A program made the translations under genes and the position numbers. A DNA stretch of 64,000 nucleotides from a bacterium (lineage in GTDB: Bacteria; Omnitrophota; Gorgyraeia; Zapsychrales; Zapsychraceae), in assembly GCA_030429765.1 (NCBI GenBank), contig JAUIER010000009.1, positions 49,941 through 113,940 on the forward strand, given 5' to 3'. Within the stretch, counting starts at the first letter, position 1. Each line of letters begins with the position of its first letter. Below are positions 42,502-64,000 of this stretch, in pieces. The notes below the pieces were generated by a model that saw nothing but the letters and a program-made list of their open reading frames with translations, did not search any database and was not told the origin of the DNA.

Positions 42502-42585
42502 TGCGAAATTAATCTCATAGGTCCTCCGGAATGATCGGTTGCCGGTCCGTCGGTAATGCCGTCATTGTCATTCGGGAGGACTTTG

Positions 42586-45061: not shown

Positions 45062-45375
45062 GCGCGGGAGTTTTTCTGGGATTGTCAGCCAAGCAGTGGA
45101 TGATTGTCGGATTTATCGGTCAGTTTATTTTCGGCGGACGGTTTTTGATCCAATGGATTTGCTCAGAGGTCAAGAAAGAGAGCCACATCCCGATGGCGTT
45201 CTGGTACATGAGTGTCCTGGGAGGACTAATCCTGTTGTTATACGCGATCTCCATTAAGAACCCTGTATTTATTATGGGACAATCGATGGGGATGATTGTT
45301 TATACACGGAATCTTATGCTGATATCTAAGAAAAACAGGCTTGAGAAGCTATCTCAGGAAAAAGCTCAATCCTAG
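45058..45375 (+). CDS. Small membrane protein with lipid-A-biosynthesis N-terminal (LAB_N) domain
   Basis: WMIVGFIGQFIFGGRFLIQW plus a second helix. This domain is typically found next to ArnC-like GT2 enzymes. Confidence 0.6.
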   Translation: MSAGVFLGLSAKQWMIVGFIGQFIFGGRFLIQWICSEVKKESHIPMAFWYMSVLGGLILLLYAISIKNPVFIMGQSMGMIVYTRNLMLISKKNRLEKLSQEKAQS

Positions 45376-48136: not shown

Positions 48137-48195
48137 CACGGATTAACAAAACCGTCAGCCGATTGAGGCGATGGTCGAAAATTACGGAGAGAAAT

Positions 48196-48816
48196 ATGGC
48201 ACAGAAGAACAAGTCAGTGGTGGCGGTAATCATTGTCGCGGTATGTGTGGCCGTCGTTGTGGGAGTAAATTATTTACAGGGACAAAAGACGGTTCAGTCG
48301 GCCCAAGGGCGGGCCAAGGGAAATCCGGATTCCAATATTAAGGTTGTCGAATTCATTGACTTTCAATGTCCGGCCTGCGCCTCCGGTGCGAAATTTCTCA
48401 ATAAGTACATCAAAGACAACCCGGATCAGATCCATTTGGAGATGAAATATTTTCCGCTCAAAGGTCATGTGCACGGGATGCTCAGCGCACGATTTACCGA
48501 ATGCGCGGCGAGACAAGGCAAGTTTTGGGAGATGCATGATAAACTGATCGATAATCAAAGTGATTGGAAAAAGTTAATCAATGCCTATCCATCGTTTGAA
48601 GTGATGGCTCAGCAGATCAATCTGGATATGACCAAACTCAATACCTGTCTGGATGATACACGCGTGGATGAGGTGATTAACAAGCATAAAGAAGAGGGTA
48701 AGCAAAAGGGTGTGCGTAGTACGCCGACATATTTTGTGAATGGGCAAATCGTTGTCGGGCCGGGCAATCTCAAAAAAGAATTGGAAAAATTATCTAAGGG
48801 AGCTTCAGAAAACTAA
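48196..48816 (+). CDS. DsbA-like thioredoxin-domain protein, membrane-anchored
   Basis: A TM anchor, then FIDFQCPACAS (CxxC). The track ORF starts at 48163. Confidence 0.7.
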   Translation: MAQKNKSVVAVIIVAVCVAVVVGVNYLQGQKTVQSAQGRAKGNPDSNIKVVEFIDFQCPACASGAKFLNKYIKDNPDQIHLEMKYFPLKGHVHGMLSARFTECAARQGKFWEMHDKLIDNQSDWKKLINAYPSFEVMAQQINLDMTKLNTCLDDTRVDEVINKHKEEGKQKGVRSTPTYFVNGQIVVGPGNLKKELEKLSKGASEN

Positions 48817-50754: not shown

Positions 50755-51399
50755 GTGATATTGCCCGGATTGATTGAGCGGATAACGATGTCGACCAAGT
50801 TAATCCTTCCTATCAATGTTTTATGTCAATTAGCTGGTCTGTTTGTATTCATAACGTATCCTGATTTTCGTCTATTTGCCGTCTTTATCCCGCTATCTGT
50901 GGCTTTCAACTCCATACGTTCCACCCGTGTCCGCAATACGTACATATCCCTGTTTGTGATTGTCTGGATGTTGTTGTTTCAGTACGAATCGATTCGCACG
51001 TTTTATCTCAATCAAAACTTTAAAAAAGACTTTCCCAAAACCCGGTTTCTGTTTCCACCGGCTGGCTGGATCATGTTTTACAATGTCGGTAATTCGGCGG
51101 GATATATCGAGGTGTTCGGTTTCAAAGACGGCGTGCCGCAATTTATAGATCCGCATGACATCTTTGAAACGCGTACAATCGGCTACGATAATATTCATCG
51201 AGGCATTCTGGGCGCGGTCAGCGATCGTAATCCTCAAAAGGCGATGCAGTTCTGCCGATTCCTCAATTACAAGTTTCCGTACTTTGATAAATTTTACGTC
51301 GCGGCATCGTATCATCCGGATCTGGTCAAAGAACGGTTTGAACGCCGCCAGCGAATCTTGTATCAGTGTGATGAAAATCAGATCAAGTTCATGAAATGA
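50755..51399 (+). CDS. Hypothetical membrane protein
   Basis: It has three to four N-terminal TM helices and overlaps the downstream HTTM gene. Confidence 0.4.
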   Translation: MILPGLIERITMSTKLILPINVLCQLAGLFVFITYPDFRLFAVFIPLSVAFNSIRSTRVRNTYISLFVIVWMLLFQYESIRTFYLNQNFKKDFPKTRFLFPPAGWIMFYNVGNSAGYIEVFGFKDGVPQFIDPHDIFETRTIGYDNIHRGILGAVSDRNPQKAMQFCRFLNYKFPYFDKFYVAASYHPDLVKERFERRQRILYQCDENQIKFMK

Positions 51400-52661
51400 A
51401 ATTTATAAAATCCATATGGTCCCGCTTATTTCTGGAAGAACGCTCATCGATGAGTTTGAGTGTGTTTCGTATGGCGGTGGCATTCACCGTCTTTGCGCAT
51501 GTGTTCCCGTCGCTGATGCATCCGCATGACAATTATTTGCCGACGGCCTTTCGCGAGTTTAATGCTAGTATTTTTCCGGTTTATATTCTTGAATGGGTGA
51601 TCCAGAGTCCGGCATGGGTTATTTATTTGTTCACCGGGCTGTTTTGCCTATTTTCATTTTGCTTTTTTGTAGGCTTTTTGTCGCAGTTCAGCGCAATTGC
51701 GACAATGATCTGCTGTTACTATTTTTACGCGCTTAACAGTTTTCACGTCGGGACATTATCATGGGATATCCTACTGGTGACATTGTTCCTGATGTGTCTG
51801 GTGCCGTATCATGGCGATTATTTTTCAGTCGACAGTTTTCTTAAGGGGAGGGAGGGGTGGAGGCGCAAACGTCCGTATTTTCTGCAGCGGTTGCTTCAGG
51901 TACAGATCGCGTTTACGTTTTTCTATACAGCATTATGGAAGATTTATCCTAAAGGTAATTGGCTTCAGGATAATCCGATTCACTATTTGATGAACATGCC
52001 CCCGCCGGGTGTAACCAAATGGTTTTTGTTGCGGGATGTGTTGCGCGATAAGCCGGAGATTTGTTATTGGATTGGTGTCGGTGTGATCGTCGCTGAATTC
52101 CTGATGCTGTTTTTGCTGTTTATCCGGCGGACCAGATCGTCCGCGATTTATGCCGGTATATTTTTTCATATCGTGCTGATCCTCACGCTCGATGTGCCGG
52201 CGACATTTTTCTTTTTATTTCCCGCGCAACTACTTTTATTTATCAATCCGGACCATTGGTTGGATTGGATTGAACAAAAGCGTGCGTATCATCGGTCGGC
52301 CAGCCGGCCCGTATTGCTTTATGACGGTGATTGTCGATTCTGCCGTTTTTGTGTAAAGCGGATTCAGATCATGGATATGTATGCCCGCTACCGCTATACA
52401 CCCTATCAATCGATTCCGCAGTTAGCGTCGATCCATCCATCCCTGACCCTCGCAATGTGCAGGCGTGAAGTGATTCTGGTTGAACCGTCTGGGAAAATTC
52501 GCGGCGGAATTGACGCGCTTCGCCGGATGAGCCTGAACCTTCCGATGATGTACCTATGGATTCCTCTGCTATATCTGCCCGGGATGGGCATTCTAGGATC
52601 CGCGATTTATCGAGTGATTGCCCGAAATCGTGGACGCATTCGCTTGCCGCAAATGTCCTAG
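51396..52661 (+). CDS. HTTM-domain (vitamin K-dependent gamma-carboxylase-like) membrane protein fused to DCC-family thiol-disulfide oxidoreductase (DUF393)
   Basis: The N-terminal HTTM-like TM region is LSVFRMAVAFTVFAHVF. The C-terminus LLYDGDCRFCRFCVKRI is the DCC CxxC motif. Confidence 0.65.
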   Translation: MKFIKSIWSRLFLEERSSMSLSVFRMAVAFTVFAHVFPSLMHPHDNYLPTAFREFNASIFPVYILEWVIQSPAWVIYLFTGLFCLFSFCFFVGFLSQFSAIATMICCYYFYALNSFHVGTLSWDILLVTLFLMCLVPYHGDYFSVDSFLKGREGWRRKRPYFLQRLLQVQIAFTFFYTALWKIYPKGNWLQDNPIHYLMNMPPPGVTKWFLLRDVLRDKPEICYWIGVGVIVAEFLMLFLLFIRRTRSSAIYAGIFFHIVLILTLDVPATFFFLFPAQLLLFINPDHWLDWIEQKRAYHRSASRPVLLYDGDCRFCRFCVKRIQIMDMYARYRYTPYQSIPQLASIHPSLTLAMCRREVILVEPSGKIRGGIDALRRMSLNLPMMYLWIPLLYLPGMGILGSAIYRVIARNRGRIRLPQMS

Positions 52662-52880
52662 TCTGTCCAACTGAGTCCTATTTAAAAAATCTTTTTAAAC
52701 TATTTATTTTTCAGGGACTTATACGAAAAAATCCACTCACCTCAATTTGCGTATTACTGCCCGAATAAGGCCTCGAATCAGCCATTTCAGTCCCCTCCAA
52801 ATGCTCAAAAATTAATCAAAAAAAATATTGCTAGACATACCGCTTTTGCTAGTATATGTAAGGTGGCACTTTAATATATA

Positions 52881-52946
52881 TAAGTAGACGGTTTATAAAT
52901 AGTTATAAGTAGACGGTTTATTATACATATTAAGTAGACGGTTTAT
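52881..52946 (+). repeat. Three direct copies of 16-nt TAAGTAGACGGTTTAT at 25-nt spacing
   Basis: Copies at 52881-52896, 52906-52921 and 52931-52946. They are related to the REP-like unit TAAGTAcatGGTAC. Confidence 0.6.
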
Positions 52947-53254
52947 AAATGACCAAAGGGGGAGGGAAGAGATCCCCCGGTCGGACATTGTATTTAAAGA
53001 GGACGGGGGGTCCTTAATCGTCGTCGGCACGACGCCATCCTGAGATCGACATTCCGAACCATGAGGGTGAAGACATTAGTTTCCACGCGCTAATCAAAAA
53101 TGACATAAGTCACATCCAATTCAGTTGCTTACGTCAATCACTTGTCCAGAAGCTCATCACTTTTTCTGTGATGGATGGATACAGTGATGCTTGCCAAGCA
53201 GGGCGTTTCATCAGCAACACAATTCCAGTCGGAACAACAGAATCCAAACAAAAA

Positions 53255-53425
53255 AAGAACCAGGTACGTATTTATAAATTAGTACACGGTACTTTAAATA
53301 ATTTAAGTAGATGGTTGAATAATATAAAAAGGTACCATCTTAAAGATATTAATAAAGTAGCATGCACTATAAATAATTATAGTACATGGAACTATAAAAT
53401 AAAAAGGTGCCATCTTAGGTAGCTC
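53255..53425. repeat. REP-like degenerate palindrome array upstream of rayT
   Basis: It contains AGTACACGGTACTT, TAAGTAGATGGTTGAAT, AAAGGTACCATCTTAAAG, TAGCATGCACTA, TAGTACATGGAACTA and AAAGGTGCCATCTTAGG. Confidence 0.5.
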
Positions 53426-54091
53426 ATGCCAAGAGCCAGTCGCATAACACAGGCAGGGGTATTACATCACGTCATCTCGAGAGGGAATGCCAATCAGGAC
53501 CTCTTTCGGGATATCGATGATAATCGCAAATACCTCGCGTTATTAAGAGAAGCTGTGAGTCAGTTTCCTTTATATGTCTACAATTATGCGCTGACTAAAA
53601 ATACGGTGCACCTGTTGGTAGAGCCCAAGCAGGACGGGATGCTTTCCAAGGCCATGGAGAGTGTCACCAGGGAGTATGCCAAATATTTCAATCAGAAATA
53701 CAATAGTATCGGACATGTGTTTGCCGGCCGATTCAAAAGTTTCGCGGTCCAACCGGACCAATTTTTCCTCGCCTGTAGTCGATATATCGACTTAAATCCA
53801 GTCAATCACGAACTTGTCAAAGAGGCCAAAGATTATAACTTCAGCGGATACGGTGTATTGGCCTTTGGACATGAGGGAGAGTACGCCGTTGATCAGCATG
53901 ATTTGTATAAGGCCTTGGGCGGAACGGATCATGATCGTCAGTTGGTATACCGCAGTTTAGTGCATCAGTATCTGGGCGCGGAATTAGATTTGGAGAATCG
54001 AAAGAGCGGAATCCTTGGATCTAAAGAGTTTAAGACGCTGGTAAAAAGCGGAGCCAATGTCAAAGATGTCAAGTTTAAGAAAGGTTTATAA
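53426..54091 (+). CDS. REP-associated tyrosine transposase (RAYT; IS200/IS605-like Y1 HUH transposase)
   Basis: HHVISRGNANQDLF...YLALL is followed by the HUH motif (NTVHLLVEP) and a catalytic Tyr region RFKSFAVQPDQFFLACSRYIDLNPV. Confidence 0.8.
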   Translation: MPRASRITQAGVLHHVISRGNANQDLFRDIDDNRKYLALLREAVSQFPLYVYNYALTKNTVHLLVEPKQDGMLSKAMESVTREYAKYFNQKYNSIGHVFAGRFKSFAVQPDQFFLACSRYIDLNPVNHELVKEAKDYNFSGYGVLAFGHEGEYAVDQHDLYKALGGTDHDRQLVYRSLVHQYLGAELDLENRKSGILGSKEFKTLVKSGANVKDVKFKKGL

Positions 54092-54345
54092 GGTGGCACC
54101 TTTATTACAAAAAGAACGTGGTACAAATAATATATTAAGTGCATGGTACTTAAAAATGCATAAGTACATGGTACATAATATACAAATAGTGCATGGTACT
54201 TTAATATCAAAAAGTAGTAGGTACATTAAATGCATAAAAGTACATGCTACTAAAATATTTATAAGAACCTGGTTCTTAAAACACTGTAAGAACCTGGTAC
54301 TTATTATCAATATAGAACATGGTACTAAAATACAGAAAAGTAGCC
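54091..54345. repeat. REP-like degenerate palindrome array downstream of rayT (at least 12 units)
   Basis: It contains AAGGTGGCACCTTTATT, ACGTGGTAC, AGTGCATGGTACTTA, TAAGTACATGGTACATA, TAGTGCATGGTACTTTA, AAGTACATGCTACTA, TAAGAACCTGGTTCTTA, TAAGAACCTGGTACTTA and TAGAACATGGTACTA. Confidence 0.55.
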
Positions 54346-54442
54346 TCTTTGTTAAATCATCCTTTGAATCTGTTTCTAGGCGTTTTAGGACCATATGGGC
54401 CAATGAGTTTCAAGGTTGTATGTTCCAACAAAGGATCGGCAG

Positions 54443-57400
54443 TTGTTAAAGCGTAAGTCTAAAATTTGGTTGATAAGGTTGCTCGCCATTCTATGGATGG
54501 GTGTCGCTTCCTTATATATGTCGACGGCGGCATTTGCCCAGTTAGACATAGAGGCCATTTTTGACACGAACGATGGAACCAGCGGTTTCGATATGCAGGA
54601 TGTGGACAACACCACACAGGTCTTTATCGATTCAGACGGTAATATCGTGACACGTGGATGCGTGCGTCTGGACAGCGGCTTAACGGAATGTACTGATTCT
54701 GAGACATTGATTGTCGATGGAACGTTGGGAGTCGGAGTGGTTGCCCCGGCTACAGTATTCCACGTGGATTCCAATGCGGGAGCCGCCACGCCGATCATGA
54801 CGGTTGAAAACACGGTCGGCGACTTCCAGGTTCATATCTTTAGCGGAAGCCCGGAAAGCAATGTGATCGGTTCGCCGGGGGATCTGTGTGTCGATCCGGC
54901 TGGTGGTATGGTCTACATCAAATCTGCCGGGGCCGGAACCAATACGGGTTGGACCGAAGTTGCAACGGGTGGAGGTATGCCGCAATGGACACAGACCGGA
55001 ACGGTCGTTCATCCGAACACGATGTCGGATGATGTGGCTATCGGCGGGACCAGTGAGGCCACGGCCGAGGTGTTCTTCCGAAACGATGGTCAAACAGTAT
55101 TTAATGAACAAGGGCGCGCGGTGAGTTTCCGCATCGAAGGTGACAATGTTCCGAACCTATTTGTGGTCAATGGAACGCTTGACCGTATCGGTATCGGAAC
55201 CTCAACGCCGGATGCGGCGGCGATCCTGGATCTGTCCGCCACCAATGCGGCCTTACGCTTAACACGTTTGAGCGATCCATCCACCGACATCGCCGTACCG
55301 CGCAACGGTATGATCGTCTATGATTCGACGGATGCTGAACTCCAGGCGTATGTCGGCGGAAGTTGGATTATGTTGGCGGCCGGCGGTATGATCGATATTT
55401 CGTCGGATACCAATCTAACCGCCGGTTTTGGAATTACGCTTACGGGCGATACCGTCAGTGTCACCGACCTGTATGTTCAAACAGCTGGCGATTCAATGCA
55501 GGGATCGCTGCAGTTTGTCGGGGTTGGATCAGACATTACCACCGGTACCGGTGAAGATTTAGCCTTGATGCCGGATTCGGGTCGGGTTGGTATTGGTGTT
55601 ACAGCGCCGGATGCCGGAGCGATTCTTGATTTGAGCGCGACGGATAAAGCCCTTCGCCTGACACGATTGAGTGATCCAGCGACGGACATCGCCGTGCCTC
55701 GAAACGGTATGATCGTATACGACTCGACGGATGCCGAACTGCAAGCCTATGTCGGCGGCAGTTGGGTGATGTTGGCTGAGGGCGGCATGATTGACATTTC
55801 ATCCGATACCAACTTGACGGCTGGATTTGGAATCACCATCACCGGTGACACGATTAGTGTGACAGACCTGTATGTTCAAACCGCCGGTGATTCGATGCAG
55901 GGATCATTGCAGTTTGTCGGGGTGGGATCAGACATTACGACCGGTACCGGAGAAGATTTAGCGTTGATGCCGGATTCAGGGCGGGTCGGTATTGGTGTTA
56001 CAGCGCCGGATGCCGGGGCCATTCTTGATTTGAGCGCGACAGACAAAGCCCTTCGCTTAACACGCTTAAGTGATCCATCCACCGACATCGCTGTCCCACG
56101 CAACGGTATGATCGTCTATGACTCGACCGATGCCGAGCTGCAAGCCTATGTCGGCGGCAGTTGGGTGATGCTGGCTGAAGGCGGCATGATCGACATTTCA
56201 TCTGATACCAACCTGACGGCCGGATTTGGTATCACGATTACCGGTGATACGGTGAGCGTCACGGATCTGTACGTGCAAACGGCAGGCGATTCAATGCAGG
56301 GAACCTTGCAGTTTGTGGGTGTGGCAACCGATATCACAACAGCTGCAGGTGAAGATCTAACATTACAACCAGGAACGGGCGGTGACGTTGTTGTGTCACA
56401 ATCTCGACTGGGCGTTGGAACGAGCACGCCGGGTGTCAGTACTATTCTTGATTTAAGTGCGACCGATCGCGCGCTACGTGTCACACGCTTGAGTGATCCT
56501 TCCACCGATATCGTGACACCGCGCAACGGTATGATCGTCTATGACTCGACGGATGCTGAACTGCAAGCCTATGTGGGCGGCAGTTGGGTGATGCTGGCGG
56601 AAGGCGGTATGATTGATATTTCTTCCGATACCAACTTGACCGCCGGATTCGGTATCACGATTACCGGAGATACGGTGAGCGTGACTGACCTATATCTACA
56701 AACCGCCGGTGATTCAATGCAGGGATCGCTTGAATTTGCGGGTGTCGCAACGGATATCATAACCTCTGCCGGTGAAGACTTGACGTTGCAGCCTGGAACC
56801 GGGGGTGACGTCGTTGTATCACAATCACGTTTAGGTGTAGGAACGAGCACGCCGGGTGTCAGTACTATTCTTGATTTAAGTGCGACCGATCGCGCGCTAC
56901 GTGTCACACGCCTGAGTGATCCGACGACCGATGTCGCGACACCGCGTAATGGTATGATCGCCTACGACTCAACGGATAATGAACTCATGGCGTATATCAA
57001 CGGATCATGGCAGATGCTGGCAGAAGGCGGCATGATCGATATTTCATCTGATACCAACTTGACGGCCGGATTCGGTATCACGATTACGGGAGATACCGTC
57101 AGCGTCACGGATCTATATGTTCAGACCGCGGGTGATTCAATGCAGGGATCATTGCAATTCGTGGGCGTTGGTTCTGACATTACGACAGGCACCGGTGAGG
57201 ATCTGGCCTTGATGCCGGGTTCGGGTCGGGTCGGTATTGGCGTCACAGCGCCGGACGCCGGGGCCATTCTTGATTTGAGCGCGACAGACAAAGCCCTTCG
57301 CCTGACACGCCTGAGCGATCCATCCACCGACATCGCTGTCCCACGAAACGGTATGATCGTCTATGACTCAACCGATGCCGAGCTGCAAGCTTATGTGGGC

Positions 57401-60400
57401 GGCAGCTGGGTGATGCTGGCAGAAGGTGGCATGATCGACATTTCATCTGATACCAACTTGACGGCCGGATTCGGTATCACGATTACCGGTGATACCGTGA
57501 GCGTCACAGATCTATATGTGCAAACAGCGGGCGATTCGATGCAGGGATCATTACAGTTTGTCGGAGTGGCAACCGATATCACGACAGCCGCGGGTGAAGA
57601 TCTGACCTTACAACCGGGCGCCGGCGGTGACGTTGTTGTATCCCAATCTCGACTGGGCGTTGGAACGAGCACGCCGGGTGTCAGTACAATTTTAGATTTG
57701 AGCGCGAGTGATCGGGCGCTACGGGTTACGCGACTCACTGATCCAGCGGCGAACATTGCGACACCACGCAATGGTATGATCGCGTACGATTCATCTGATA
57801 ACGAACTGCAGGCGTATGTCAATGGATCATGGGTGATGTTGGCCGAAGGCGGCATGATCGATATTTCTTCCGATACCAATTTGACCGCTGGATTCGGTAT
57901 CACTATCACGGGCGACACAGTGAGCGTGACGGATCTGTATGTTCAAACGGCCGGGGATTCAATGCAGGGATCCTTGCAGTTTGTCGGAGTGGCAACCGAT
58001 ATCACGACGGCCGCGGGTGAAGATCTGACCTTGCAACCGGGTGCCGGGGGTGACGTCGTTGTGTCACAATCCCGTTTAGGTGTTGGAACCAGCACGCCGG
58101 ATGTGAGTACCATACTTGACTTGAGCGCGACTGATCGCGCGCTGCGTGTCACTCGATTAAGTGATCCATCGACGGATATCGCGACACCGCGTAACGGTAT
58201 GATCGTCTACGACTCGACCGATGCCGAACTGCAAGCGTATGTGGGTGGTAGTTGGGTGATGCTCGCTGAGGGCGGCATGATCGATATCTCCGATGACACC
58301 AACCTAACGGCTGGATTCGGCATCACCATCACGGGTGATACGATCAGCGTGACGGATCTCTACCTACAAACAGCCGGTGATTCCATGAGCGGGACATTGC
58401 AGATGGCGCAATTGTCAGATCCGACCATGACGTTCACACCATCCGGTGCGGATACAGATTTCTGGATCGGCGTACAGGACAATAACAATAATACCAATGA
58501 TGATTCCTTCCAAATCGGCGCGGGAAGTACGGCCGGTTCTAATTCTTATTTCGCGATTACATCCGACGGGACAATCGATATTAGCGGCGCGACGCTACTC
58601 AAACTACCGGCGTCGGCTTCTCCGGTATTGCCAACATCGGCAGGTGAGGTTGTGCTGGATCTTAACGCCCTAAGCGGAACAACCGGACAAGGATTGCTGA
58701 CGGTCTCCGATGGTCGACAGCAAACGTATGTTGTAGCGACAGATACACTCCCGCCGGCCGACGGACGAATACCAAAATACGACGCGGCCAGCGGTACGAT
58801 TCAGTGGTTGCCGGATAACGATACCGGCTTCCCGGCATGGGATTCTATCCAGGATGCCTCCGGACAGGGAACAATTGATTATCTGACATTCTCGCAACGC
58901 ATTGAAACCAGTATTACCGACGGTACGGGCGGTATCGGTCTTGAATTGCGATCGACGGATCTGGGTGTCGGTACGTCGGATGTGGTCTTGTTAGATCTGC
59001 AGGCGCAGCAGAATGATGATCCGAACTTTGTTCCATTACGTATTCGGGACGACATCGGCGGAACAGCGGATACGCTGGTTGAAGTGGATTATCAAGGTAG
59101 TATCTTGACGGAAGGTACGTTGCGGGTTGCGGCGGATGCGGACCCATCCATCACCTTTGAACCATCGGGTGGCGACACGAATTTCTGGTTAGGCGTTCAG
59201 GATGATGCAGGCGGAGATGACGATGATGTCTTCCAAATCGGTGAAGGTACCGTCGGTGGTAATATTTACTTGACCGTTGATTCCAACGGACGTATTGGGG
59301 TTGGAACATCAACGCCGGCGCTCAGTTCATTGCTAGACCTATCCGCCACAGATGCGGCACTGCGTATCACACGCGTTAGTGATCCATCCGTTAACATTGC
59401 GACACCGCGTAACGGTATGATCGTCTATGATTCGACCGACAATGAACTTCAAGCCTATATTAATGGAAGCTGGGTGATGCTGGCCGAAGGCGGCATGATT
59501 GATATCTCTGATGATACCAACTTGACGGCAGGTTTTGGTATTACGATCACAGGCGACACGGTGAGCGTGACAGATCTATATGTTCAATCCGCGGGTGATT
59601 CGATGAGCGGATCATTGCAATTCGTCGGAGTTGATTCAGATATCACCACGGGTACAGGTGAAGATCTGGCCTTGATGCCGGATTCAGGACGTGTCGGTGT
59701 TGGAACGACATCACCGGATGCCGGTGCGATTCTTGATCTAAGCGCGACGGACAAAGCGCTTCGGTTAACTCGTCTAAGTGATCCTTCAACAGATATCGCC
59801 GTTCCACGCAATGGTATGATTGTCTACGATTCGACGGATGCGGAACTGCAAGCGTATGTGGGTGGTAGTTGGGTAATGCTGGCTGAAGGGGGCATGATCG
59901 ATATCTCCGATGATACCAACTTGACGGCTGGATTCGGTATCACGATTACCGGCGACACGGTCAGTGTCACAGATTTATATGTTCAGACAGCCGGTGATTC
60001 GATGACAGGATCATTGCAATTCGTCGGGGTGGCCAGTGACATCATCACGGCCACGGGTGAAGATCTGACCTTGCGACCGGGAACCGGCGGTGATGTGGTT
60101 GTCGCCCAATCGCGTTTGGGTGTCGGAACCAGCACACCGGGTGTGAGTACGATTCTTGATTTGAGCGCGACGGACCGCGCGCTACGCGTCACACGCTTGA
60201 GTGATCCGACCACCGACGTGGTAACGCCGCGTAATGGTATGATCGCCTATGACTCAACGGATAATGAATTGATGGCGTACATCAACGGATCATGGCAGAT
60301 GCTGGCTGAAGGCGGCATGATCGATATCTCTGATGATACGAACTTGACGGCCGGCTTTGGTATTACGATCACAGGCGACACGGTGAGCGTGACCGATCTA

Positions 60401-63400
60401 TATGTTCAGACAGCCGGAGATTCGATGAGCGGATCATTACAGTTTGTCGGGGTTGATTCGGATATCACCACCGGAACCGGTGAAGATTTGGCGTTGATGC
60501 CGGATTCAGGACGTGTCGGTGTTGGAACGACATCGCCGGATGCCGGAGCGATTCTTGATCTAAGTGCGACGGACAAAGCGCTTCGGTTAACTCGTCTGAG
60601 TGATCCTTCAACAGACATCGCCGTTCCACGTAACGGTATGATCGTCTATGACTCGACGGACGCGGAACTGCAAGCGTATGTGGGTGGTAGTTGGGTAATG
60701 CTGGCTGAAGGGGGCATGATCGATATCTCTGACGATACCAACTTGACGGCAGGTTTTGGTATTACGATTACAGGTGATACGGTGAGTGTCACAGATTTAT
60801 ATGTTCAGACAGCCGGTGATTCGATGACAGGATCATTGCAATTCGTCGGGGTGGCCAGTGACATCATCACGGCCACGGGTGAAGATCTGACCTTGCGACC
60901 GGGAACGGGCGGTGATGTGGTTGTCGCCCAATCGCGCTTGGGTGTCGGAACCAGCACACCGGGTGTGAGTACGATCCTTGATTTGAGCGCCGCGGACCGC
61001 GCGTTACGCGTCACCCGGCTCACAGATCCGTCGGCCAATATTGCCACACCGCTGAACGGTATGATCGCCTACGATTCAACAGACGATGAATTACAAGCGT
61101 ATGTCAACGGATCATGGGTGATGCTGGCCGAAGGCGGCATGATCGATATCTCCGATGATACCAACTTGACGGCAGGTTTTGGTATTACGATCACTGGTGA
61201 CACCGTGAGCGTGACCGATCTTTATGTTCAAACCGCGGGTGATTCGATGACAGGATCATTGCAGTTCGTCGGGGTGGCCAGTGACATCATCACGGCCGCA
61301 GGTGAAGATCTGACCTTACGACCGGGAACCGGCGGTGATGTGGTTGTCGCGCAATCGCGCTTGGGTGTCGGAACCAGCACGCCGGGCGTGAGTACGATCC
61401 TTGATTTGAGCGCCGCGGACCGAGCGTTACGCGTCACACGGCTCACAGATCCATCGGCCAATATTGCCACACCGCTGAATGGTATGATCGCCTATGATTC
61501 AACAGACAATGAATTACAAGCATATGTCAACGGATCATGGGTGATGCTGGCTGAAGGTGGAATGATCGATATCTCAGATGATACGAATTTGACAGCTGGA
61601 TTTGGTATCACCATTACAGGTGATACGATCAGTGTCACGGATCTGTATGTTCAAACAGCCGGTGATTCGATGACCGGTACATTACAATTCGTCGGTGTCA
61701 CAAATGATATCACCACCGCGACGGGCGAGGATTTGACATTACGTCCGGGAACCGGCGGTGATGTGGTGATTAGTCAGGGGACATTGACCTTCGACGGTGT
61801 GACGACTGATATCGCGACATCAGCCGGTGAAGATCTCACCATTCAGCCGGGAACCGGCGGTGATGTGATTGTGTCGCAATCGCGATTGGGTGTTGGTACA
61901 ACCGCGCCGGATGTAAGTACCATTTTGGATCTAAGCGCGACGGACCGAGCGCTACGCGTCACGCGATTGACTGATCCGTCCGCCAACATTGCCACACCAC
62001 GCAACGGTATGATCGTCTATGACTCTACGGACAACGAATTACAGGCGTATGTCAACGGATCATGGGTGATGCTGGCTGAGGGTGGCATGATCGACATCTC
62101 CGATGATACCAACTTGACGGCAGGTTTTGGTATTACGATCACGGGTGACACGGTAAGCGTTACGGATCTGTATGTTCAAACCGCCGGTGATTCGATGAGC
62201 GGATCATTACAGTTTGTCGGCGTTGATTCCGATATCACAACCGGCACAGGTGAAGATTTGGCCTTAATGCCGGATTCAGGTCGAGTGGGTGTTGGAACGA
62301 CATCACCGGATGCGGGAGCTATTCTTGACTTAAGTGCAACAGACAAGGCGCTTCGGTTAACTCGTCTGAGTGATCCTTCAACAGACATCGCGGTTCCACG
62401 TAACGGTATGATCGTCTATGACTCGACGGATGCGGAACTGCAAGCGTATGTGGGCGGCAGTTGGGTGATGCTGGCCGAAGGCGGCATGATCGATATCTCC
62501 GACGACACCAACCTCACGGCTGGCTTTGGTATTACGATTACCGGTGACACGGTCAGCGTCACGGATCTGTATGTTCAAACCGCCGGTGATTCGATGAGCG
62601 GCACGTTGCAGATGGCGCAATTGACTGATCCGTCGATCACCTTTACGCCGGACGGGGCCGACAGTGACTTCTGGGTAGGTGTTCAAGACAATGATAACGC
62701 TGCGAATGACGATGTCTTCCAGATCGGCGCCGGCAGCACTCCGGGCACCAATGCCTACTTCGCGATAACCACGGACGGAACCATCGACCTAAGCGGTTCA
62801 ACACTCGTTAAATTACCAAGCGGACCAACACCGGTGCTTCCACTGTCAGCGGGTGAAATTGTGCTTGATACCAATTTCTACTCCGCCAATCAGGGGGCGC
62901 TTCGACTATTTGATGGAACACAAGAAGCTCATGTCGTCAGTGTGACAGGCGGTCTTCCGGGTGATCAATTTGTTCCAAAATATTCATCGGGTACCGGTCT
63001 CATCACATGGCAAGCTGATGCGGATAGCGGGGCGCCGGCTTGGAATGCGATACTGGATGCGTCGGCTGTGGGAACAATTGACTTCAGGACATTTGAACAA
63101 CGCTTGGAAACCAGTATTACCGACGGTGTCGGCGGAACGGGATTGACATTGCGCGCGACAGATTTGGGAGTCGGTACCAGTGACGTGATTATGCTTGATA
63201 TCGACGCGTCGGCCGATGATGATCCAAACTTCATTCCATTGCGGATCACCGACAACACGAGTGCAGAGACTCTAATGGAGGTAGACTATCAAGGTAGTAT
63301 TCTCACCGAAGGAACCATCCGTGTGGCCGCGGACGCGGATCCGACCGTAACGTTTGAGCCGTCAGCCGGAGATACCAACTTCTGGTTGGGTGTTCAGGAT

Positions 63401-64000
63401 GATGCCGGTGGTGACGATGACGATCTCTTCCAGATTGGAGAAGGTGCGGCCGGCGGAAATGTTTATCTGACCATCGATTCAAATGGTCGTATCGGGGTCG
63501 GGACGACCGCGCCAGGTGCGAGTACCTTGCTGGATCTGTCCGCAACCGACGCGGCGCTTCGTATTACCCGCGTGAGCGATCCATCGGTCAACATCGCTTC
63601 GCCGCAGAACGGTATGATCGTTTATGATTCAACCGATAATGAATTGCAGGCCTACATTGGCGGCAGTTGGGTGATGCTGGCCGAAGGCGGTATGATTGAT
63701 ATCTCTGACGATACAAACTTGACGGCCGGATTTGGTATTACCTTGACCGGTGACACGGTGAGCGTGACGGATCTGTATGTTCAAACCGCCGGTGATTCGA
63801 TGAGTGGTTCACTACAATTTGTGGGCGTTGACTCGGATATCACCACCGGAACGGGTGAAGATCTGGCCTTGATGCCGGATTCAGGTCGAGTGGGTGTTGG
63901 TACGACATCACCGGATGCCGGAGCGATTCTTGATCTAAGTGCAACGGACAAAGCGCTTCGCCTGACACGCTTAAGTGATCCTTCAATAGACATTGCCGTC
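54443..64000 (+). CDS. Giant secreted tandem-repeat protein (putative surface/adhesin-like), 5' complete and 3' truncated by window end (more than 3180 aa in window)
   Basis: The frame (position = 2 mod 3) is open from the stop at 54404-54406 to nt 64000 with no stop. The predicted start is TTG 54443 with AAAGGA upstream. The signal peptide is KRKSKIWLIRLLAILWMGVASLYMSTAAFA|Q. A unique N-domain follows, then repeats. The gene is absent from the ORF track because it has no stop. Confidence 0.85.
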   Translation, partial: MLKRKSKIWLIRLLAILWMGVASLYMSTAAFAQLDIEAIFDTNDGTSGFDMQDVDNTTQVFIDSDGNIVTRGCVRLDSGLTECTDSETLIVDGTLGVGVVAPATVFHVDSNAGAATPIMTVENTVGDFQVHIFSGSPESNVIGSPGDLCVDPAGGMVYIKSAGAGTNTGWTEVATGGGMPQWTQTGTVVHPNTMSDDVAIGGTSEATAEVFFRNDGQTVFNEQGRAVSFRIEGDNVPNLFVVNGTLDRIGIGTSTPDAAAILDLSATNAALRLTRLSDPSTDIAVPRNGMIVYDSTDAELQAYVGGSWIMLAAGGMIDISSDTNLTAGFGITLTGDTVSVTDLYVQTAGDSMQGSLQFVGVGSDITTGTGEDLALMPDSGRVGIGVTAPDAGAILDLSATDKALRLTRLSDPATDIAVPRNGMIVYDSTDAELQAYVGGSWVMLAEGGMIDISSDTNLTAGFGITITGDTISVTDLYVQTAGDSMQGSLQFVGVGSDITTGTGEDLALMPDSGRVGIGVTAPDAGAILDLSATDKALRLTRLSDPSTDIAVPRNGMIVYDSTDAELQAYVGGSWVMLAEGGMIDISSDTNLTAGFGITITGDTVSVTDLYVQTAGDSMQGTLQFVGVATDITTAAGEDLTLQPGTGGDVVVSQSRLGVGTSTPGVSTILDLSATDRALRVTRLSDPSTDIVTPRNGMIVYDSTDAELQAYVGGSWVMLAEGGMIDISSDTNLTAGFGITITGDTVSVTDLYLQTAGDSMQGSLEFAGVATDIITSAGEDLTLQPGTGGDVVVSQSRLGVGTSTPGVSTILDLSATDRALRVTRLSDPTTDVATPRNGMIAYDSTDNELMAYINGSWQMLAEGGMIDISSDTNLTAGFGITITGDTVSVTDLYVQTAGDSMQGSLQFVGVGSDITTGTGEDLALMPGSGRVGIGVTAPDAGAILDLSATDKALRLTRLSDPSTDIAVPRNGMIVYDSTDAELQAYVGGSWVMLAEGGMIDISSDTNLTAGFGITITGDTVSVTDLYVQTAGDSMQGSLQFVGVATDITTAAGEDLTLQPGAGGDVVVSQSRLGVGTSTPGVSTILDLSASDRALRVTRLTDPAANIATPRNGMIAYDSSDNELQAYVNGSWVMLAEGGMIDISSDTNLTAGFGITITGDTVSVTDLYVQTAGDSMQGSLQFVGVATDITTAAGEDLTLQPGAGGDVVVSQSRLGVGTSTPDVSTILDLSATDRALRVTRLSDPSTDIATPRNGMIVYDSTDAELQAYVGGSWVMLAEGGMIDISDDTNLTAGFGITITGDTISVTDLYLQTAGDSMSGTLQMAQLSDPTMTFTPSGADTDFWIGVQDNNNNTNDDSFQIGAGSTAGSNSYFAITSDGTIDISGATLLKLPASASPVLPTSAGEVVLDLNALSGTTGQGLLTVSDGRQQTYVVATDTLPPADGRIPKYDAASGTIQWLPDNDTGFPAWDSIQDASGQGTIDYLTFSQRIETSITDGTGGIGLELRSTDLGVGTSDVVLLDLQAQQNDDPNFVPLRIRDDIGGTADTLVEVDYQGSILTEGTLRVAADADPSITFEPSGGDTNFWLGVQDDAGGDDDDVFQIGEGTVGGNIYLTVDSNGRIGVGTSTPALSSLLDLSATDAALRITRVSDPSVNIATPRNGMIVYDSTDNELQAYINGSWVMLAEGGMIDISDDTNLTAGFGITITGDTVSVTDLYVQSAGDSMSGSLQFVGVDSDITTGTGEDLALMPDSGRVGVGTTSPDAGAILDLSATDKALRLTRLSDPSTDIAVPRNGMIVYDSTDAELQAYVGGSWVMLAEGGMIDISDDTNLTAGFGITITGDTVSVTDLYVQTAGDSMTGSLQFVGVASDIITATGEDLTLRPGTGGDVVVAQSRLGVGTSTPGVSTILDLSATDRALRVTRLSDPTTDVVTPRNGMIAYDSTDNELMAYINGSWQMLAEGGMIDISDDTNLTAGFGITITGDTVSVTDLYVQTAGDSMSGSLQFVGVDSDITTGTGEDLALMPDSGRVGVGTTSPDAGAILDLSATDKALRLTRLSDPSTDIAVPRNGMIVYDSTDAELQAYVGGSWVMLAEGGMIDISDDTNLTAGFGITITGDTVSVTDLYVQTAGDSMTGSLQFVGVASDIITATGEDLTLRPGTGGDVVVAQSRLGVGTSTPGVSTILDLSAADRALRVTRLTDPSANIATPLNGMIAYDSTDDELQAYVNGSWVMLAEGGMIDISDDTNLTAGFGITITGDTVSVTDLYVQTAGDSMTGSLQFVGVASDIITAAGEDLTLRPGTGGDVVVAQSRLGVGTSTPGVSTILDLSAADRALRVTRLTDPSANIATPLNGMIAYDSTDNELQAYVNGSWVMLAEGGMIDISDDTNLTAGFGITITGDTISVTDLYVQTAGDSMTGTLQFVGVTNDITTATGEDLTLRPGTGGDVVISQGTLTFDGVTTDIATSAGEDLTIQPGTGGDVIVSQSRLGVGTTAPDVSTILDLSATDRALRVTRLTDPSANIATPRNGMIVYDSTDNELQAYVNGSWVMLAEGGMIDISDDTNLTAGFGITITGDTVSVTDLYVQTAGDSMSGSLQFVGVDSDITTGTGEDLALMPDSGRVGVGTTSPDAGAILDLSATDKALRLTRLSDPSTDIAVPRNGMIVYDSTDAELQAYVGGSWVMLAEGGMIDISDDTNLTAGFGITITGDTVSVTDLYVQTAGDSMSGTLQMAQLTDPSITFTPDGADSDFWVGVQDNDNAANDDVFQIGAGSTPGTNAYFAITTDGTIDLSGSTLVKLPSGPTPVLPLSAGEIVLDTNFYSANQGALRLFDGTQEAHVVSVTGGLPGDQFVPKYSSGTGLITWQADADSGAPAWNAILDASAVGTIDFRTFEQRLETSITDGVGGTGLTLRATDLGVGTSDVIMLDIDASADDDPNFIPLRITDNTSAETLMEVDYQGSILTEGTIRVAADADPTVTFEPSAGDTNFWLGVQDDAGGDDDDLFQIGEGAAGGNVYLTIDSNGRIGVGTTAPGASTLLDLSATDAALRITRVSDPSVNIASPQNGMIVYDSTDNELQAYIGGSWVMLAEGGMIDISDDTNLTAGFGITLTGDTVSVTDLYVQTAGDSMSGSLQFVGVDSDITTGTGEDLALMPDSGRVGVGTTSPDAGAILDLSATDKALRLTRLSDPSIDIAV
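55180..64000 (+). repeat. In-frame tandem coding repeats: 399-nt (133-aa) and 423-nt (141-aa) units, 822-nt dimers, and a 4209-nt higher-order super-repeat
   Basis: DLYVQTAGDSMQGSLQFVG recurs at 55471, 55870 and 56269 (a 399-nt period), then at 56691 (a 423-nt period). The large module MSGTLQMAQLSDP... recurs at 58401 and 62610 (4209 nt = 1403 codons). Near-identical units lie 822 nt apart. Confidence 0.9.

What the first reader, a model, noticed from the sequence alone, without database searches (positions are those of the whole stretch)
54443..64000. Giant uninterrupted tandem-repeat ORF of more than 9.5 kb, missed by the ORF track because it has no stop in the window
A single + strand frame stays open from 54407 to the window end, at least 3185 codons, and probably continues far beyond. 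I translated the whole stretch and found no stop. The product starts with a classic Sec signal peptide (KRKSKIWLIRLLAILWMGVASLYMSTAAFA|QLD). A unique N-terminal region of about 240 aa contains two Cys (TRGCVRLDSGLTEC). It then enters repeats of about 133 aa: ...GIGVTAPDAGAILDLSATDKALRLTRLSDPSTDIAVPRNGMIVYDSTDAELQAYVGGSWVMLAEGGMIDISSDTNLTAGFGITITGDTVSVTDLYVQTAGDSMQGSLQFVGVGSDITTGTGEDLALMPDSGRV. These alternate with a 141-aa variant: TLQFVGVATDITTAAGEDLTLQPGTGGDVVVSQSRLGVGTSTPGVSTILDLSATDRALRVTRLSDP... A distinct module of about 317 aa appears twice, exactly 4209 nt apart: MAQLSDPTMTFTPSGADTDFWIGVQDNNNNTNDDSFQIGAGS ... FWLGVQDDAGGDDDDVFQIGEGT. The gene is therefore built from a 1403-aa super-repeat, which implies recent segmental duplication. 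The composition is Thr/Ser/Gly/Asp-rich and Cys-free, with predicted beta-rich units. This fits an extracellular fibre, S-layer or adhesin, but I recognise no named repeat family. The dense minus-strand small ORFs in the track over 55-64 kb are antisense artefacts of this gene.
Basis: seen in the sequence. Interest (0 to 1): 0.85.

Follow-up and report, generated by a model that had tools for sequence, protein, structure and literature searches.

The report
Giant secreted tail-fibre-like repeat protein
This is the real, strongly conserved 5' part of a very long gene in an Omnitrophota-type bacterium, encoding an exported, very acidic fibre protein made of old repeats whose motifs recur in bacterial proteins of the phage-tail-fibre kind; it is an uncharacterised member of a known kind of giant surface protein, not a new kind of system.

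Summary
The + frame from TTG 54443 to the window end has 3186 codons and no stop; the other five frames have 60-210 stops. The product has a 32-aa Sec signal peptide, a 228-aa unique region, 17 full repeat units of 133/141/175 aa, and two ~310-aa modules exactly 4209 nt apart.

The "recent segmental duplication" reading fails. Units are 82-100% identical as protein but only 71-93% as DNA. Median dS is 1.55 and median dN/dS is 0.056. The two modules are 67% identical. The repeats are old and under strong purifying selection, which also argues against an assembly artefact.

Orthologues (64-74% identity) sit in the same gene order in four Candidatus Omnitrophota genomes. The unit's core domain recurs in about 3100 database protein clusters. 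These include 3400-4300-aa multi-repeat proteins and proteins ending in a Peptidase_S74 chaperone domain; NCBI names one a "tail fiber domain-containing protein".

Best reading: a Sec-exported, probably trimeric, tail-fibre-like surface fibre, plausibly used for attachment. The C-terminus, total length and function are unknown.

The parts
54432..54445 (+). Shine-Dalgarno-like AGGA (GGA at 54433-54435) plus the proposed TTG start codon (54443-54445)
   Evidence: Read directly from the sequence. The spacer is 7 nt. The position matches the ATG starts of orthologues (L002 ORF 9986; P0001 and P0002). The start codon is inferred, not proven. TTG 54413 is an alternative.
54443..54538 (+). Sec-type signal peptide, 32 aa, predicted cleavage AFA|QLD
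   Evidence: n-region KRKSK, hydrophobic core, A-x-A motif. Apart from one borderline window at residue 88 (score 1.64, just above the 1.6 cutoff), the hydrophobic windows (Kyte-Doolittle score >1.6) lie in the first 32 residues. The cleavage junction is conserved in orthologues. No dedicated signal-peptide predictor was available.
54539..55222 (+). Unique N-terminal region (228 aa, 3 Cys), ending in the motif VFNEQGRAVSFRIEGDNVPNLFVVNGTLDRIGIGTSTP
   Evidence: 64-74% identical to Omnitrophota orthologues. The last ~55 aa match giant proteins of Ca. Peribacteria at 58-63%. There is a weak similarity to ricin-B lectin chains in the PDB, E=0.0015, not pursued.
55223..58396 (+). Repeat units 1-8. 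Each has an A domain (~55 aa, ILDLSATD..PRNGMIVYDSTD..LQAYVGGSWVMLAEGG), a B segment (~43 aa, MIDISSDTNLTAGFGITITGDTVSVTDLYVQTAGDSMxGSLQ) and a C linker of 35 or 43 aa ending RxGxGTxxP. Unit 8 runs into module 1 in place of its C linker.
   Evidence: In the AF2 model the A domain is the only confidently modelled part (pLDDT 79-88).
58397..59329 (+). Module 1 (311 aa): an acidic X element (DPxxTFxPxGxDxDFWxGVQD..DDxFQIG), a central domain (LPxxxxPVLPxSAGExVLD..DG..VPKY..G.IxW..D, then AWxxIxDAS..TIDF..DLGVGTSDV..DDDPNFxPLRI), and a second X element ending RIGVGTSTP
59330..62605 (+). Repeat units 9-16. Unit 14 (61397-61921) is the 175-aa variant with a duplicated 34-aa C segment.
62606..63526 (+). 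Module 2 (307 aa), 67% identical to module 1
63527..64000 (+). Unit 17 and the first 25 aa of unit 18. The ORF is cut by the window end.
   Evidence: The orthologue in L002 carries repeats for more than 10 kb after its start.
53426..54091 (+). Context, not shown to be functionally linked: an IS200/Y1-transposase-like gene (221 aa) immediately upstream
   Evidence: Pfam Y1_Tnp, 35.1 bits. It is conserved in the same position in L001-L004 at 72-81% identity, higher than the neighbouring genes.
54087..54330 (+). Context: array of ~25-nt-period AT-rich repeats with core AAGTRCATGGTAC between the Y1-like gene and the giant ORF. A second array lies at 52860-53420.
   Evidence: 7 matches against 0.55 expected. 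Similar GAACRTGGTWC motifs flank the Y1-like gene in L003.

Best explanation
The feature is the 5' 9.6 kb of a real, expressed chromosomal gene of a bacterium related to Candidatus Omnitrophota.

Proposed mechanism:
1. The product is exported through the Sec pathway after cleavage of a 32-aa signal peptide (inferred from sequence features).
2. It forms a very long, very acidic, Cys-poor fibre outside the cytoplasmic membrane.
3. Each repeat contributes one small beta 'knob' (the A domain, with a weak DUF2793-like signature P-x-NGMIxYD..L..Y..G.W) and a stretch of shaft (the B and C segments, with the GDSMTGxL and RxGIGTxxP motifs). The same motifs recur in homologous bacterial proteins that end in the Peptidase_S74 chaperone domain; NCBI names one of them a 'tail fiber domain-containing protein'.
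4. By analogy with those S74-terminated relatives, the chains most likely assemble as an intertwined homotrimer of triple-beta-helix type (inferred, weakly supported).
5. The repeats set the reach of the fibre and give many copies of a putative binding knob. The two ~310-aa modules are interspersed specialised segments.
6. The most likely role is attachment to a surface or to a host or prey cell (inferred from the architecture and from the reported lifestyle of the phylum; not tested here).

The repeat array is evolutionarily old and maintained by purifying selection. It is neither a recent expansion nor an assembly artefact.
For: The gene is real and constrained:
- 3186 codons with no stop, against 60-210 stops in the other frames.
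- Units are 82-100% identical as protein but 71-93% as DNA. There are 5410 synonymous against 1444 non-synonymous codon differences.
- Nei-Gojobori median dN/dS is 0.056 and median dS is 1.55. Units 10 and 12 have dN 0 and dS 0.33.

Lineage and locus:
- The closest proteins are from Omnitrophota MAGs at 67-73% identity.
- The gene order DsbA / orf144 / Memo-AMMECR1 / orf214 / HTTM-DCC1 / Y1-like / giant gene is shared with four Omnitrophota contigs, two of them 0.87 and 1.63 Mb long.
- The rest of the window is housekeeping: DnaG, RpoD, LepA, PEPCK, aromatic amino-acid genes.

Export:
- Signal-peptide features and a conserved cleavage junction.
- No later transmembrane segment, and net charge -313.

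Tail-fibre-like kinship:
- An exhaustive HMMER search finds 3108 representative proteins at E<=1e-3. Most match the GIGT cap plus the A domain. Several have 16-19 matched stretches in 3400-4300 aa.
- 7 of 7 distant homologues, preselected by a local S74 screen, plus P0022, carry C-terminal Peptidase_S74 above the Pfam cutoff.
- NCBI names one of them (P0149) 'tail fiber domain-containing protein'.
- DUF2793 occurs in the tail fibre protein of the RcGTA gene transfer agent (PMC5026251).

Fold:
- The named Foldseek hits in the viral library are mostly tail fibre or S74 proteins, but none is significant.

Phylum context:
- Omnitrophota are reported as mostly ultra-small and host-dependent (PMC10066038, title and abstract) and rich in giant, mostly membrane-associated or secreted proteins, including a tandem-repeat class and an 8.6% class with a signal peptide only (10.64898/2026.06.07.730766).
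- West-Roberts et al. propose adhesion roles for giant proteins (10.1101/2023.11.21.568195).
Against: - The 3' end is outside the window. Neither an S74 domain, nor any anchor, nor the total length could be seen.
- The orthologue in L002 is broken by many frameshifts. That is either long-read error or decay.
- A monomer model cannot show trimerisation.
- No solved-structure relative was found by sequence.
- No match in 50,697 phage records by tblastn. The tail-fibre kinship therefore rests on cellular S74-bearing homologues, not on phage proteins.
- A single unit scores only 12.9 bits against DUF2793, whose cutoff is 27.
- No secretion system for crossing an outer membrane is encoded in the window.
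- There is no expression or binding data of any kind.
Confidence: 0.6

Rival explanations
1. It is a structural envelope component, such as an S-layer-like coat, sheath or extracellular matrix protein, rather than a discrete attachment fibre. The repeats would tile the cell surface.
For: It is secreted, extremely acidic, Thr/Ser/Gly/Asp-rich and Cys-free, with a conserved chromosomal locus. A PMT-family glycosyltransferase and a GT2 gene lie about 10 kb upstream and could glycosylate such a protein.
Against: No SLH or other S-layer anchoring domain was found in Pfam or NCBIfam scans of the 3186 aa. S-layer proteins are normally far shorter and not built of tail-fibre motifs. Homologues end in S74 chaperone domains typical of fibres and spikes.
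Confidence: 0.15
2. It is the tail fibre of a prophage, tailocin or gene-transfer-agent-like particle encoded elsewhere in the genome, not a cell-surface protein.
Against: It has a Sec signal peptide; by my own knowledge, virion fibres are assembled in the cytoplasm and lack one. There are no phage genes in 54 kb of upstream sequence. The housekeeping synteny is conserved in four genomes. There is no tblastn match in the phage collection. A size of more than 3186 aa with 17+ repeats exceeds known tail fibres.
Confidence: 0.07
3. It is a secreted polysaccharide-degrading fibre. The triple-beta-helix modules would act as lyase or depolymerase sites against a host or prey envelope, as in phage HylP.
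For: The best structural matches of the module are HylP hyaluronan lyases, a tailspike depolymerase and an endosialidase. West-Roberts et al. link Omnitrophota giant proteins to cell-wall degradation.
Confidence: 0.1
4. It is an assembly artefact or a decaying pseudogene. The long frame would then reflect mis-joined repeats or a relic.
For: The region is repetitive. The orthologue in L002 is full of frameshifts. All database orthologues are partial, at contig ends.
Against: Copies differ at 7-29% of DNA positions and the longest exact repeat is 122 nt, so collapse or mis-joining is unlikely. Zero stops in 3186 codons and dN/dS of 0.056 are incompatible with decay. Partial orthologues are the expected result of short-read assemblies breaking in repeats.
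Confidence: 0.03

Closest known systems
Bacterial 'tail fiber domain-containing proteins' ending in a Peptidase_S74 (endosialidase intramolecular chaperone) domain, e.g. P0149 from a Saprospiraceae MAG, and P0020, P0052, P0062, P0100, P0128
   Same: They share the RxGIGTxxP cap plus the A domain (LD.S...L..PR......P..G.I.Y......L..Y.G..W), often in many copies, and GDTMTGxL-type shaft motifs. They are cell-encoded, and some have signal peptides or T9SS tails.
   Different: Identity is only about 30-37% and confined to the A domain and its flanks. Their repeats are less regular. Whether this gene ends in S74 is unknown, because its end lies outside the window. This gene's units are unusually uniform (82-100% identical).
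Omnitrophota giant proteins (West-Roberts et al. 2023, bioRxiv 10.1101/2023.11.21.568195; Nielsen & Lui 2026, bioRxiv 10.64898/2026.06.07.730766), in particular the 'tandem-repeat scaffold' and signal-peptide-only classes
   Same: Same phylum-level lineage. A very long gene, one repeat dominating by copy number, a signal peptide with no TM helices, and nucleotide repeats that have diverged while the protein architecture persists. That is the pattern the 2026 preprint describes.
   Different: Those catalogues start at 10,000 aa, and only 3186 aa can be shown here. The published repeat types are TSP3, ConA-like lectin, NHL, WD, HEAT and PATR. Neither paper mentions tail fibres, and the 2026 preprint does not mention DUF2793 or S74. 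The West-Roberts giants have many TM regions and SecA-like domains, which are absent here.
Pfam DUF2793 (PF10983), present in the RcGTA tail fibre protein Rcc00171 and in phage tail fibre or structural proteins (PMC5026251)
   Same: The signature P-x-NG-x-I-x-Y-D....L..Y..G-x-W of the A domain aligns to the last ~37 positions of the 87-position model.
   Different: Each unit reaches only about 13 bits (cutoff 27) and covers less than half of the model. The 137.8 bits for the whole protein is the sum of 17 weak matches.
Phage triple-beta-helix fibres and spikes: HylP hyaluronan lyase (6wv2, 2c3f), phi92/K1F endosialidase, T4 gp34
   Same: The module model is an extended chain whose only structural neighbours are such proteins.
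Giant repetitive adhesins exported by type I secretion (LapA, SiiE, MpIBP; from my own knowledge)
   Same: A very long, acidic, tandem-repeat extracellular protein thought to extend a binding region away from the cell.
   Different: Those lack an N-terminal Sec signal peptide, are built of BIg-type repeats and end in RTX repeats with a T1SS signal. None of these was detected here.

Membership tests
Pfam DUF2793 (PF10983) | A match to the family HMM at or above the gathering score (27 bits), over most of the 87-position model | tested here: inconclusive
   The whole protein scores 137.8 bits but has 0 stretches significant on their own. A single unit scores 12.9 bits, E 0.1, covering profile positions 50-87 only. 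Close homologues P0001, P0003 and P0004 carry precomputed PF10983 hits.
Pfam PF26696 (identity unknown to me) | A match to the family HMM | not testable with these tools
   Listed as precomputed on homologues P0001-P0007, P0009 and P0010. It did not appear in the local Pfam scan of this protein even at E<=1, so it is presumably absent from the local copy. No paper mentions it.
S74-terminated tail-fibre-like proteins ('tail fiber domain-containing protein') | A C-terminal Peptidase_S74 intramolecular chaperone domain | not testable with these tools
   The 3' end of the gene lies beyond the window. Orthologous contigs end inside the repeats or are frameshifted. The metagenome scan found no orthologue. 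The domain is present in 8 tested distant homologues.
S74-terminated tail-fibre-like proteins ('tail fiber domain-containing protein') | An intertwined homotrimeric fibre (triple beta-helix or beta-spiral) | tested here: inconclusive
Phage, tailocin or GTA virion tail fibre | Encoded with, or assembled onto, a phage-like particle; cytoplasmic assembly without a signal peptide | tested here: not met
   A Sec-type signal peptide is present. The neighbourhood is housekeeping with no phage genes. Chromosomal synteny is conserved in 4 genomes. No tblastn hit in the phage collection.
Omnitrophota giant proteins sensu West-Roberts et al. 2023 | Length of tens of thousands of aa, numerous transmembrane regions, and a divergent SecA DEAD-like domain | tested here: not met
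   In the 3186 aa visible there is no TM-like segment after the signal peptide and no SecA domain. Total length is not determinable.
Omnitrophota 'tandem-repeat scaffold' / signal-peptide-only long proteins (Nielsen & Lui 2026) | One repeat dominating by copy number; a signal peptide without TM helices | tested here: met
   17 or more copies of one unit. Signal peptide and no TM segment.
Omnitrophota 'tandem-repeat scaffold' / signal-peptide-only long proteins (Nielsen & Lui 2026) | Length of at least 10,000 aa (the catalogue threshold) | not testable with these tools
   Only 3186 aa lie in the window. The L002 orthologue shows repeats for more than 10 kb of DNA, or more than 3300 aa.
T1SS RTX giant adhesins (LapA/SiiE type) | No Sec signal peptide; BIg-type repeats; C-terminal RTX repeats and a T1SS signal | tested here: not met
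   A Sec signal peptide is present. No Big or RTX families were found in Pfam or NCBIfam scans. The C-terminus was not seen.
SwmB-type 'cyanobacterial long protein repeat' (TIGR02059) | Individual repeats matching the model | tested here: not met
   48.3 bits for the whole protein with 0 significant stretches. Single units give no hit even at E<=1. The score is a sum of very weak matches.
Trimeric autotransporter adhesins | YadA-type head or stalk repeats and a C-terminal beta-barrel anchor | tested here: inconclusive
   No YadA families were found in the visible 3186 aa. The anchor is not testable because the C-terminus is missing. One distant homologue (P0048) combines YadA_head repeats with S74.

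The most novel reading that the evidence does not exclude
Ultra-small, host-dependent Omnitrophota have taken the phage tail-fibre building plan (S74-type trimeric beta-helix shaft with small receptor-binding knobs), put it behind a Sec signal peptide, and expanded it into a multi-thousand-residue, multivalent 'grappling' fibre on their own surface. Repeat number would set the reach towards the host cell. The copies would be kept nearly identical as protein while their codons are free, or even selected, to diverge, which would protect the array from recombinational collapse.
Probability: 0.25. Interest if true: 0.6.

Novelty: new member of a known kind. Interest (0 to 1): 0.35.

Why it matters
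If the reading is right, the gene is a candidate attachment organelle of a poorly understood, uncultured phylum of nanobacteria whose host contact is unexplained. It would also be a clear case of tail-fibre-type architecture used by cells rather than viruses.

It is also a clean natural example of a long tandem array held nearly constant at the protein level (dN/dS about 0.06) while synonymous sites are close to saturation.

It shows a practical problem too. All public orthologues are truncated at contig ends, so such genes are systematically lost or mis-sized in short-read MAGs.

It does not reveal a new type of system. Giant repetitive secreted proteins are already documented in this phylum and elsewhere.

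Tried and rejected
- A word-index search with the whole 3186-aa protein timed out.
- The same search with module 2 returned only 3 partial hits and missed the known homologue P0003, so it was not informative about rarity.
- A combined module-plus-unit alignment (A4) was misaligned by MAFFT, with module homologues placed on the unit. It was discarded.
- The AFDB50 fold library was unavailable.
- Sequence searches of the PDB with the unit profile, the module and the N-terminal region gave nothing usable. The only marginal hit was ricin-B lectin chains to the N-terminal region, E 0.0015.
- tblastn against 50,697 phage records gave no match.
- The metagenome contig scan gave only two distant loci and no orthologue or 3' end.
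- The Pfam hits Glyco_hydro_2_N, UTRA and DUF6213, and the NCBIfam hits swm_rep_I and YdfZ, on the whole protein have no individually significant stretch. They vanish when single units are scanned, so they are artefacts of summing 17 weak matches.
- A profile-profile comparison of unit and module shows that only the RxGVGTxxP cap is shared, so the module is not a diverged unit.
- PHROG hits were all to families of unknown function.
- The Ca. Peribacteria giant ORFs (L005-L007) share only the ~55-aa VFNEQ..DFRIEGD..DRIGIGT motif, so they are not orthologues.
Full report
**Observation.** Translating 54407-64000 on the + strand gives 3198 codons without a stop. From the proposed start, TTG 54443, there are 3186 codons and 0 stops. 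The other five frames of the same stretch contain 60-210 stops. The start is preceded by AAAGGA with a 7-nt spacer, and it aligns with the ATG starts of orthologues. The first 32 residues have the features of a Sec signal peptide: a basic n-region, a hydrophobic core and an AFA|Q cleavage motif. The cleavage junction is conserved in orthologues. Apart from one borderline window at residue 88 (score 1.64, cutoff 1.6), no later 19-residue window reaches transmembrane-like hydrophobicity.

**Repeat layout.** After a 228-aa unique region with three Cys come 17 full units and one truncated unit, anchored on [IL]LDLSA. The spacings are 133, 133, 141, 141, 133, 141, 141, 406 | 133, 141, 133, 141, 141, 175, 133, 402 aa. 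Tandem Repeats Finder reports 399- and 423-nt periods. The two long spacings each contain a ~310-aa module. The module starts, 58397 and 62606, are exactly 4209 nt apart.

**Anatomy of a unit.**
- The A domain is about 55 aa: ILDLSATD.ALR.TRLSDP...I..PRNGMI.YDSTD.ELQAYV.GSWVMLAEGG.
- The B segment is about 43 aa: MIDISxDTNLTAGFGITITGDTVSVTDLYVQTAGDSMxGSLQ.
- The C linker ends in RxGxGTxxP. It occurs as a 35-aa form, a 43-aa form, or a form with the 34-aa core duplicated in unit 14.
- Each module has an acidic X element at both ends (..DPxxTFxPxGxDxxFWxGVQDD.GGDDDDxFQIGxG..), which is a longer relative of the C linker. Between them lies a central domain with the motif LP....P.....GE..LD......G.L...DG........P....VPK....G.I.W..D.
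- Profile-profile comparison finds only the GIGT cap shared between unit and module.

**Age of the repeats.**
- Over the common 97-aa core, units are 82-100% identical as protein but only 71-93% as DNA. Synonymous codon differences outnumber non-synonymous ones 5410 to 1444.
- Nei-Gojobori estimates over all 136 pairs give median dN 0.10, median dS 1.55 (14 pairs saturated) and median dN/dS 0.056. Units 10 and 12 are identical as protein yet have dS 0.33.
- The two modules are 67% identical as protein and about 71% as DNA. The longest exact DNA repeat in the gene is 122 nt.
- Units 8/16 and 9/17, which flank the modules, are each other's best partners (95% protein, 82-83% DNA). So an old duplication of a module-bearing block did occur. 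The order of unit types differs between the two halves, and other best pairs (3/6, 5/11, 10/12, 13/14) point to later, smaller duplications.
- 'Recent segmental duplication' is thus not supported.
- The same numbers show that the frame is translated and under strong purifying selection. They also make assembly collapse or mis-joining unlikely.

**Organism and locus.** The window is bacterial chromosome: DnaG, RpoD, LepA, PEPCK, DsbD, RuvA, ScpB, aromatic amino-acid genes and others, almost all on the + strand. The closest proteins to the N-terminal 410 aa are 'hypothetical protein, partial' entries from Candidatus Omnitrophota MAGs at 67-73% identity. A scan of one genome per species found the orthologue in four Omnitrophota assemblies. 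All four share the upstream order DsbA-like / orf144 / Memo-AMMECR1 / orf214 / HTTM-DCC1 / Y1-transposase-like / giant gene, at 52-81% amino-acid identity. In three of them the gene runs into a contig end. In the fourth (L002, a 1.63-Mb contig) the frame is broken by many frameshifts, but recognisable units continue for more than 10 kb. The full length and the C-terminus could not be recovered. The metagenome scan returned only two distant loci.

**Family searches.**
- Pfam reports DUF2793 at 137.8 bits for the whole protein, but with no individually significant stretch. A single unit scores 12.9 bits (cutoff 27) and covers only profile positions 50-87.
- The other whole-protein hits (Glyco_hydro_2_N, UTRA, TIGR02059 swm_rep_I, YdfZ) disappear on single units, so they are sums of weak matches.
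- Close homologues carry precomputed PF10983 and PF26696. PF26696 seems absent from the local Pfam copy and I could not identify it.
- PHROG matches are all to families of unknown function.
- There is no sequence relative in the PDB and no tblastn match in 50,697 phage records.

**Wider distribution.** An exhaustive HMMER search of 1.84 billion representative proteins, using unit 16 + module 2 + unit 17 as the query, found 3108 proteins at E<=1e-3, 231 at E<=1e-10 and 15 at E<=1e-30. Most matches cover the GIGT cap plus the A domain (query 375-460). About 90 matched segments (several per protein in some cases) extend over a whole unit. Some proteins are themselves multi-repeat giants: P0019 has 4319 aa and 16 matched stretches, P0036 has 3865 aa and 19, P0029 has 3554 aa and 18, and P0072 has 3426 aa. 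The central module domain has about 20 homologous segments at 26-43% identity, sometimes in tandem. Most of these proteins are unnamed or 'hypothetical'.

**Link to tail-fibre-type proteins.** A local screen indicated that at least 15 of the top 150 hits have a chaperone-like domain near the C-terminus. All seven that I then scanned, plus P0022, carry Peptidase_S74 ('chaperone of endosialidase') above the Pfam cutoff at their C-terminus. NCBI names one of them 'tail fiber domain-containing protein'. From established knowledge, the S74 domain is the intramolecular chaperone that drives folding of homotrimeric triple-beta-helix tail fibres and spikes and is then cleaved off. DUF2793 has been noted in the RcGTA tail fibre protein and in phage tail fibre proteins (PMC5026251).

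**Structure.**
- An AF2 model of unit 16 + module 2 + unit 17, with a 10-row alignment, was poor: pLDDT 47. Only the A domains were confident (79-88). Each A domain is a short strand and turn followed by a three-stranded sheet.
- A model of module 2, with a 21-row alignment of true homologues, reached pLDDT 68.8 and pTM 0.42, and is extended rather than compact.
- Foldseek against the PDB gave nothing below E 0.07, and against BFVD nothing below E 1e-3. All TM-scores were <=0.27, although the named hits are mostly tail fibres, S74 proteins and collagen-repeat proteins.
- This is consistent with one strand of a triple beta-helix, but it does not establish it.

**Interpretation.** Shown:
- A real, selectively maintained gene, conserved at one locus in an Omnitrophota lineage.
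- It encodes a protein of at least 3186 aa with a Sec-type signal peptide and no membrane-spanning segment, very acidic (net charge about -313), made of old repeats.
- Its core domain is shared with many cellular proteins of the S74-terminated tail-fibre type.

Inferred, with moderate support: it is a homotrimeric fibre with a beta-helical shaft and periodic knobs.

Inferred from context only: it is used for attachment to a surface or to a host or prey cell. Omnitrophota are reported as largely ultra-small and host-dependent (PMC10066038) and as unusually rich in giant secreted or membrane proteins. These include a tandem-repeat class in which nucleotide repeats have decayed while the protein architecture persists (10.64898/2026.06.07.730766). 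Adhesion has been proposed for such proteins (10.1101/2023.11.21.568195).

Rivals are an envelope or matrix protein, a true virion fibre, a fibre-borne depolymerase, and an artefact or pseudogene. All are less likely, for the reasons given in their entries.

**Novelty.** Giant repetitive secreted proteins are a known kind, both generally and in this phylum, and the repeat's core domain is already covered by Pfam families on the homologues. This particular family is uncharacterised. Its tail-fibre-like make-up is not mentioned in the two Omnitrophota giant-gene papers I checked. I rate it a new member of a known kind, of moderate to low interest. The main open questions are the C-terminus, the oligomeric state and the binding target.

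Noticed in passing
window 53426-54091, with 52860-53420 and 54087-54330: An IS200/Y1-transposase-like gene (221 aa, Pfam Y1_Tnp 35 bits) sits immediately upstream of the giant gene. It is flanked on both sides by arrays of ~25-nt-period AT-rich repeats with a palindromic core (AAGTRCATGGTAC; 7 matches, all on the + strand, against 0.55 expected). It resembles a REP-associated tyrosine transposase with REP-like arrays. The downstream array could also be a set of regulator-binding sites in the giant gene's promoter region. The gene holds the same position in four Omnitrophota genomes and is more conserved (72-81% identity) than the neighbouring genes (52-64%). L003 has similar GAACRTGGTWC motifs on both sides.
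   Followed up: partly
window 42556-45375: A PMT_2/PMT-family glycosyltransferase (594 aa), overlapped by a GT2 glycosyltransferase (242 aa) and followed by a small ORF, lies about 10 kb upstream of the Thr/Ser-rich giant protein. It is a candidate periplasmic protein-O-glycosylation system. No link was tested.
   Followed up: no
window 25792-27906, 48163-48816, 51396-52661: A cluster of thiol-disulfide and redox-folding genes lies near the giant gene, whose mature N-terminal region has three Cys: DsbD-like, DsbA-like, and an HTTM domain fused to a DCC1-like oxidoreductase.
   Followed up: no
window 54539-55222 (protein residues ~113-227): Marginal sequence similarity of the unique N-terminal region to ricin-B-type lectin chains (mistletoe lectin B, 1m2t_B, E 0.0015), around GSPGDLCVDPAGGMVYIKS...GW. 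It could hint at a carbohydrate-binding head, or it could be chance.
   Followed up: no
L002 13400-20000: The orthologous gene in the 1.63-Mb HK-STAS-OMNI-4 contig is broken into many short frames, yet repeat units are recognisable in all three frames for more than 10 kb. This is either uncorrected long-read indel errors in a repetitive region or a decaying copy.
   Followed up: partly
L005 3224-17560; L006 8309-20659: A Candidatus Peribacteria (CPR) genome encodes a complete 4779-aa ORF and a second ORF of more than 4117 aa. The 4779-aa ORF, the one I translated, is built of other tail-fibre-type motifs (RYVNVSGDTMTG.L, VFNEQSRxVDFRIESDGNANMFFVD..DRIGIGT), with repeats that by eye resemble FG-GAP units and a C-terminal region that by eye resembles the S74 chaperone (neither scanned). 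They share only a ~55-aa motif with the window protein.
   Followed up: partly
window 1-64000: Almost every long ORF is on the + strand, and GC skew is positive in every 2-kb bin, so the cumulative skew rises steadily. This is consistent with one replichore read in the leading-strand direction.
   Followed up: no
window 9112-11508: A 798-aa ORF with only a weak, sub-threshold HD_4 hit (21.6 bits against a cutoff of 27.2). It is otherwise unannotated.
   Followed up: no
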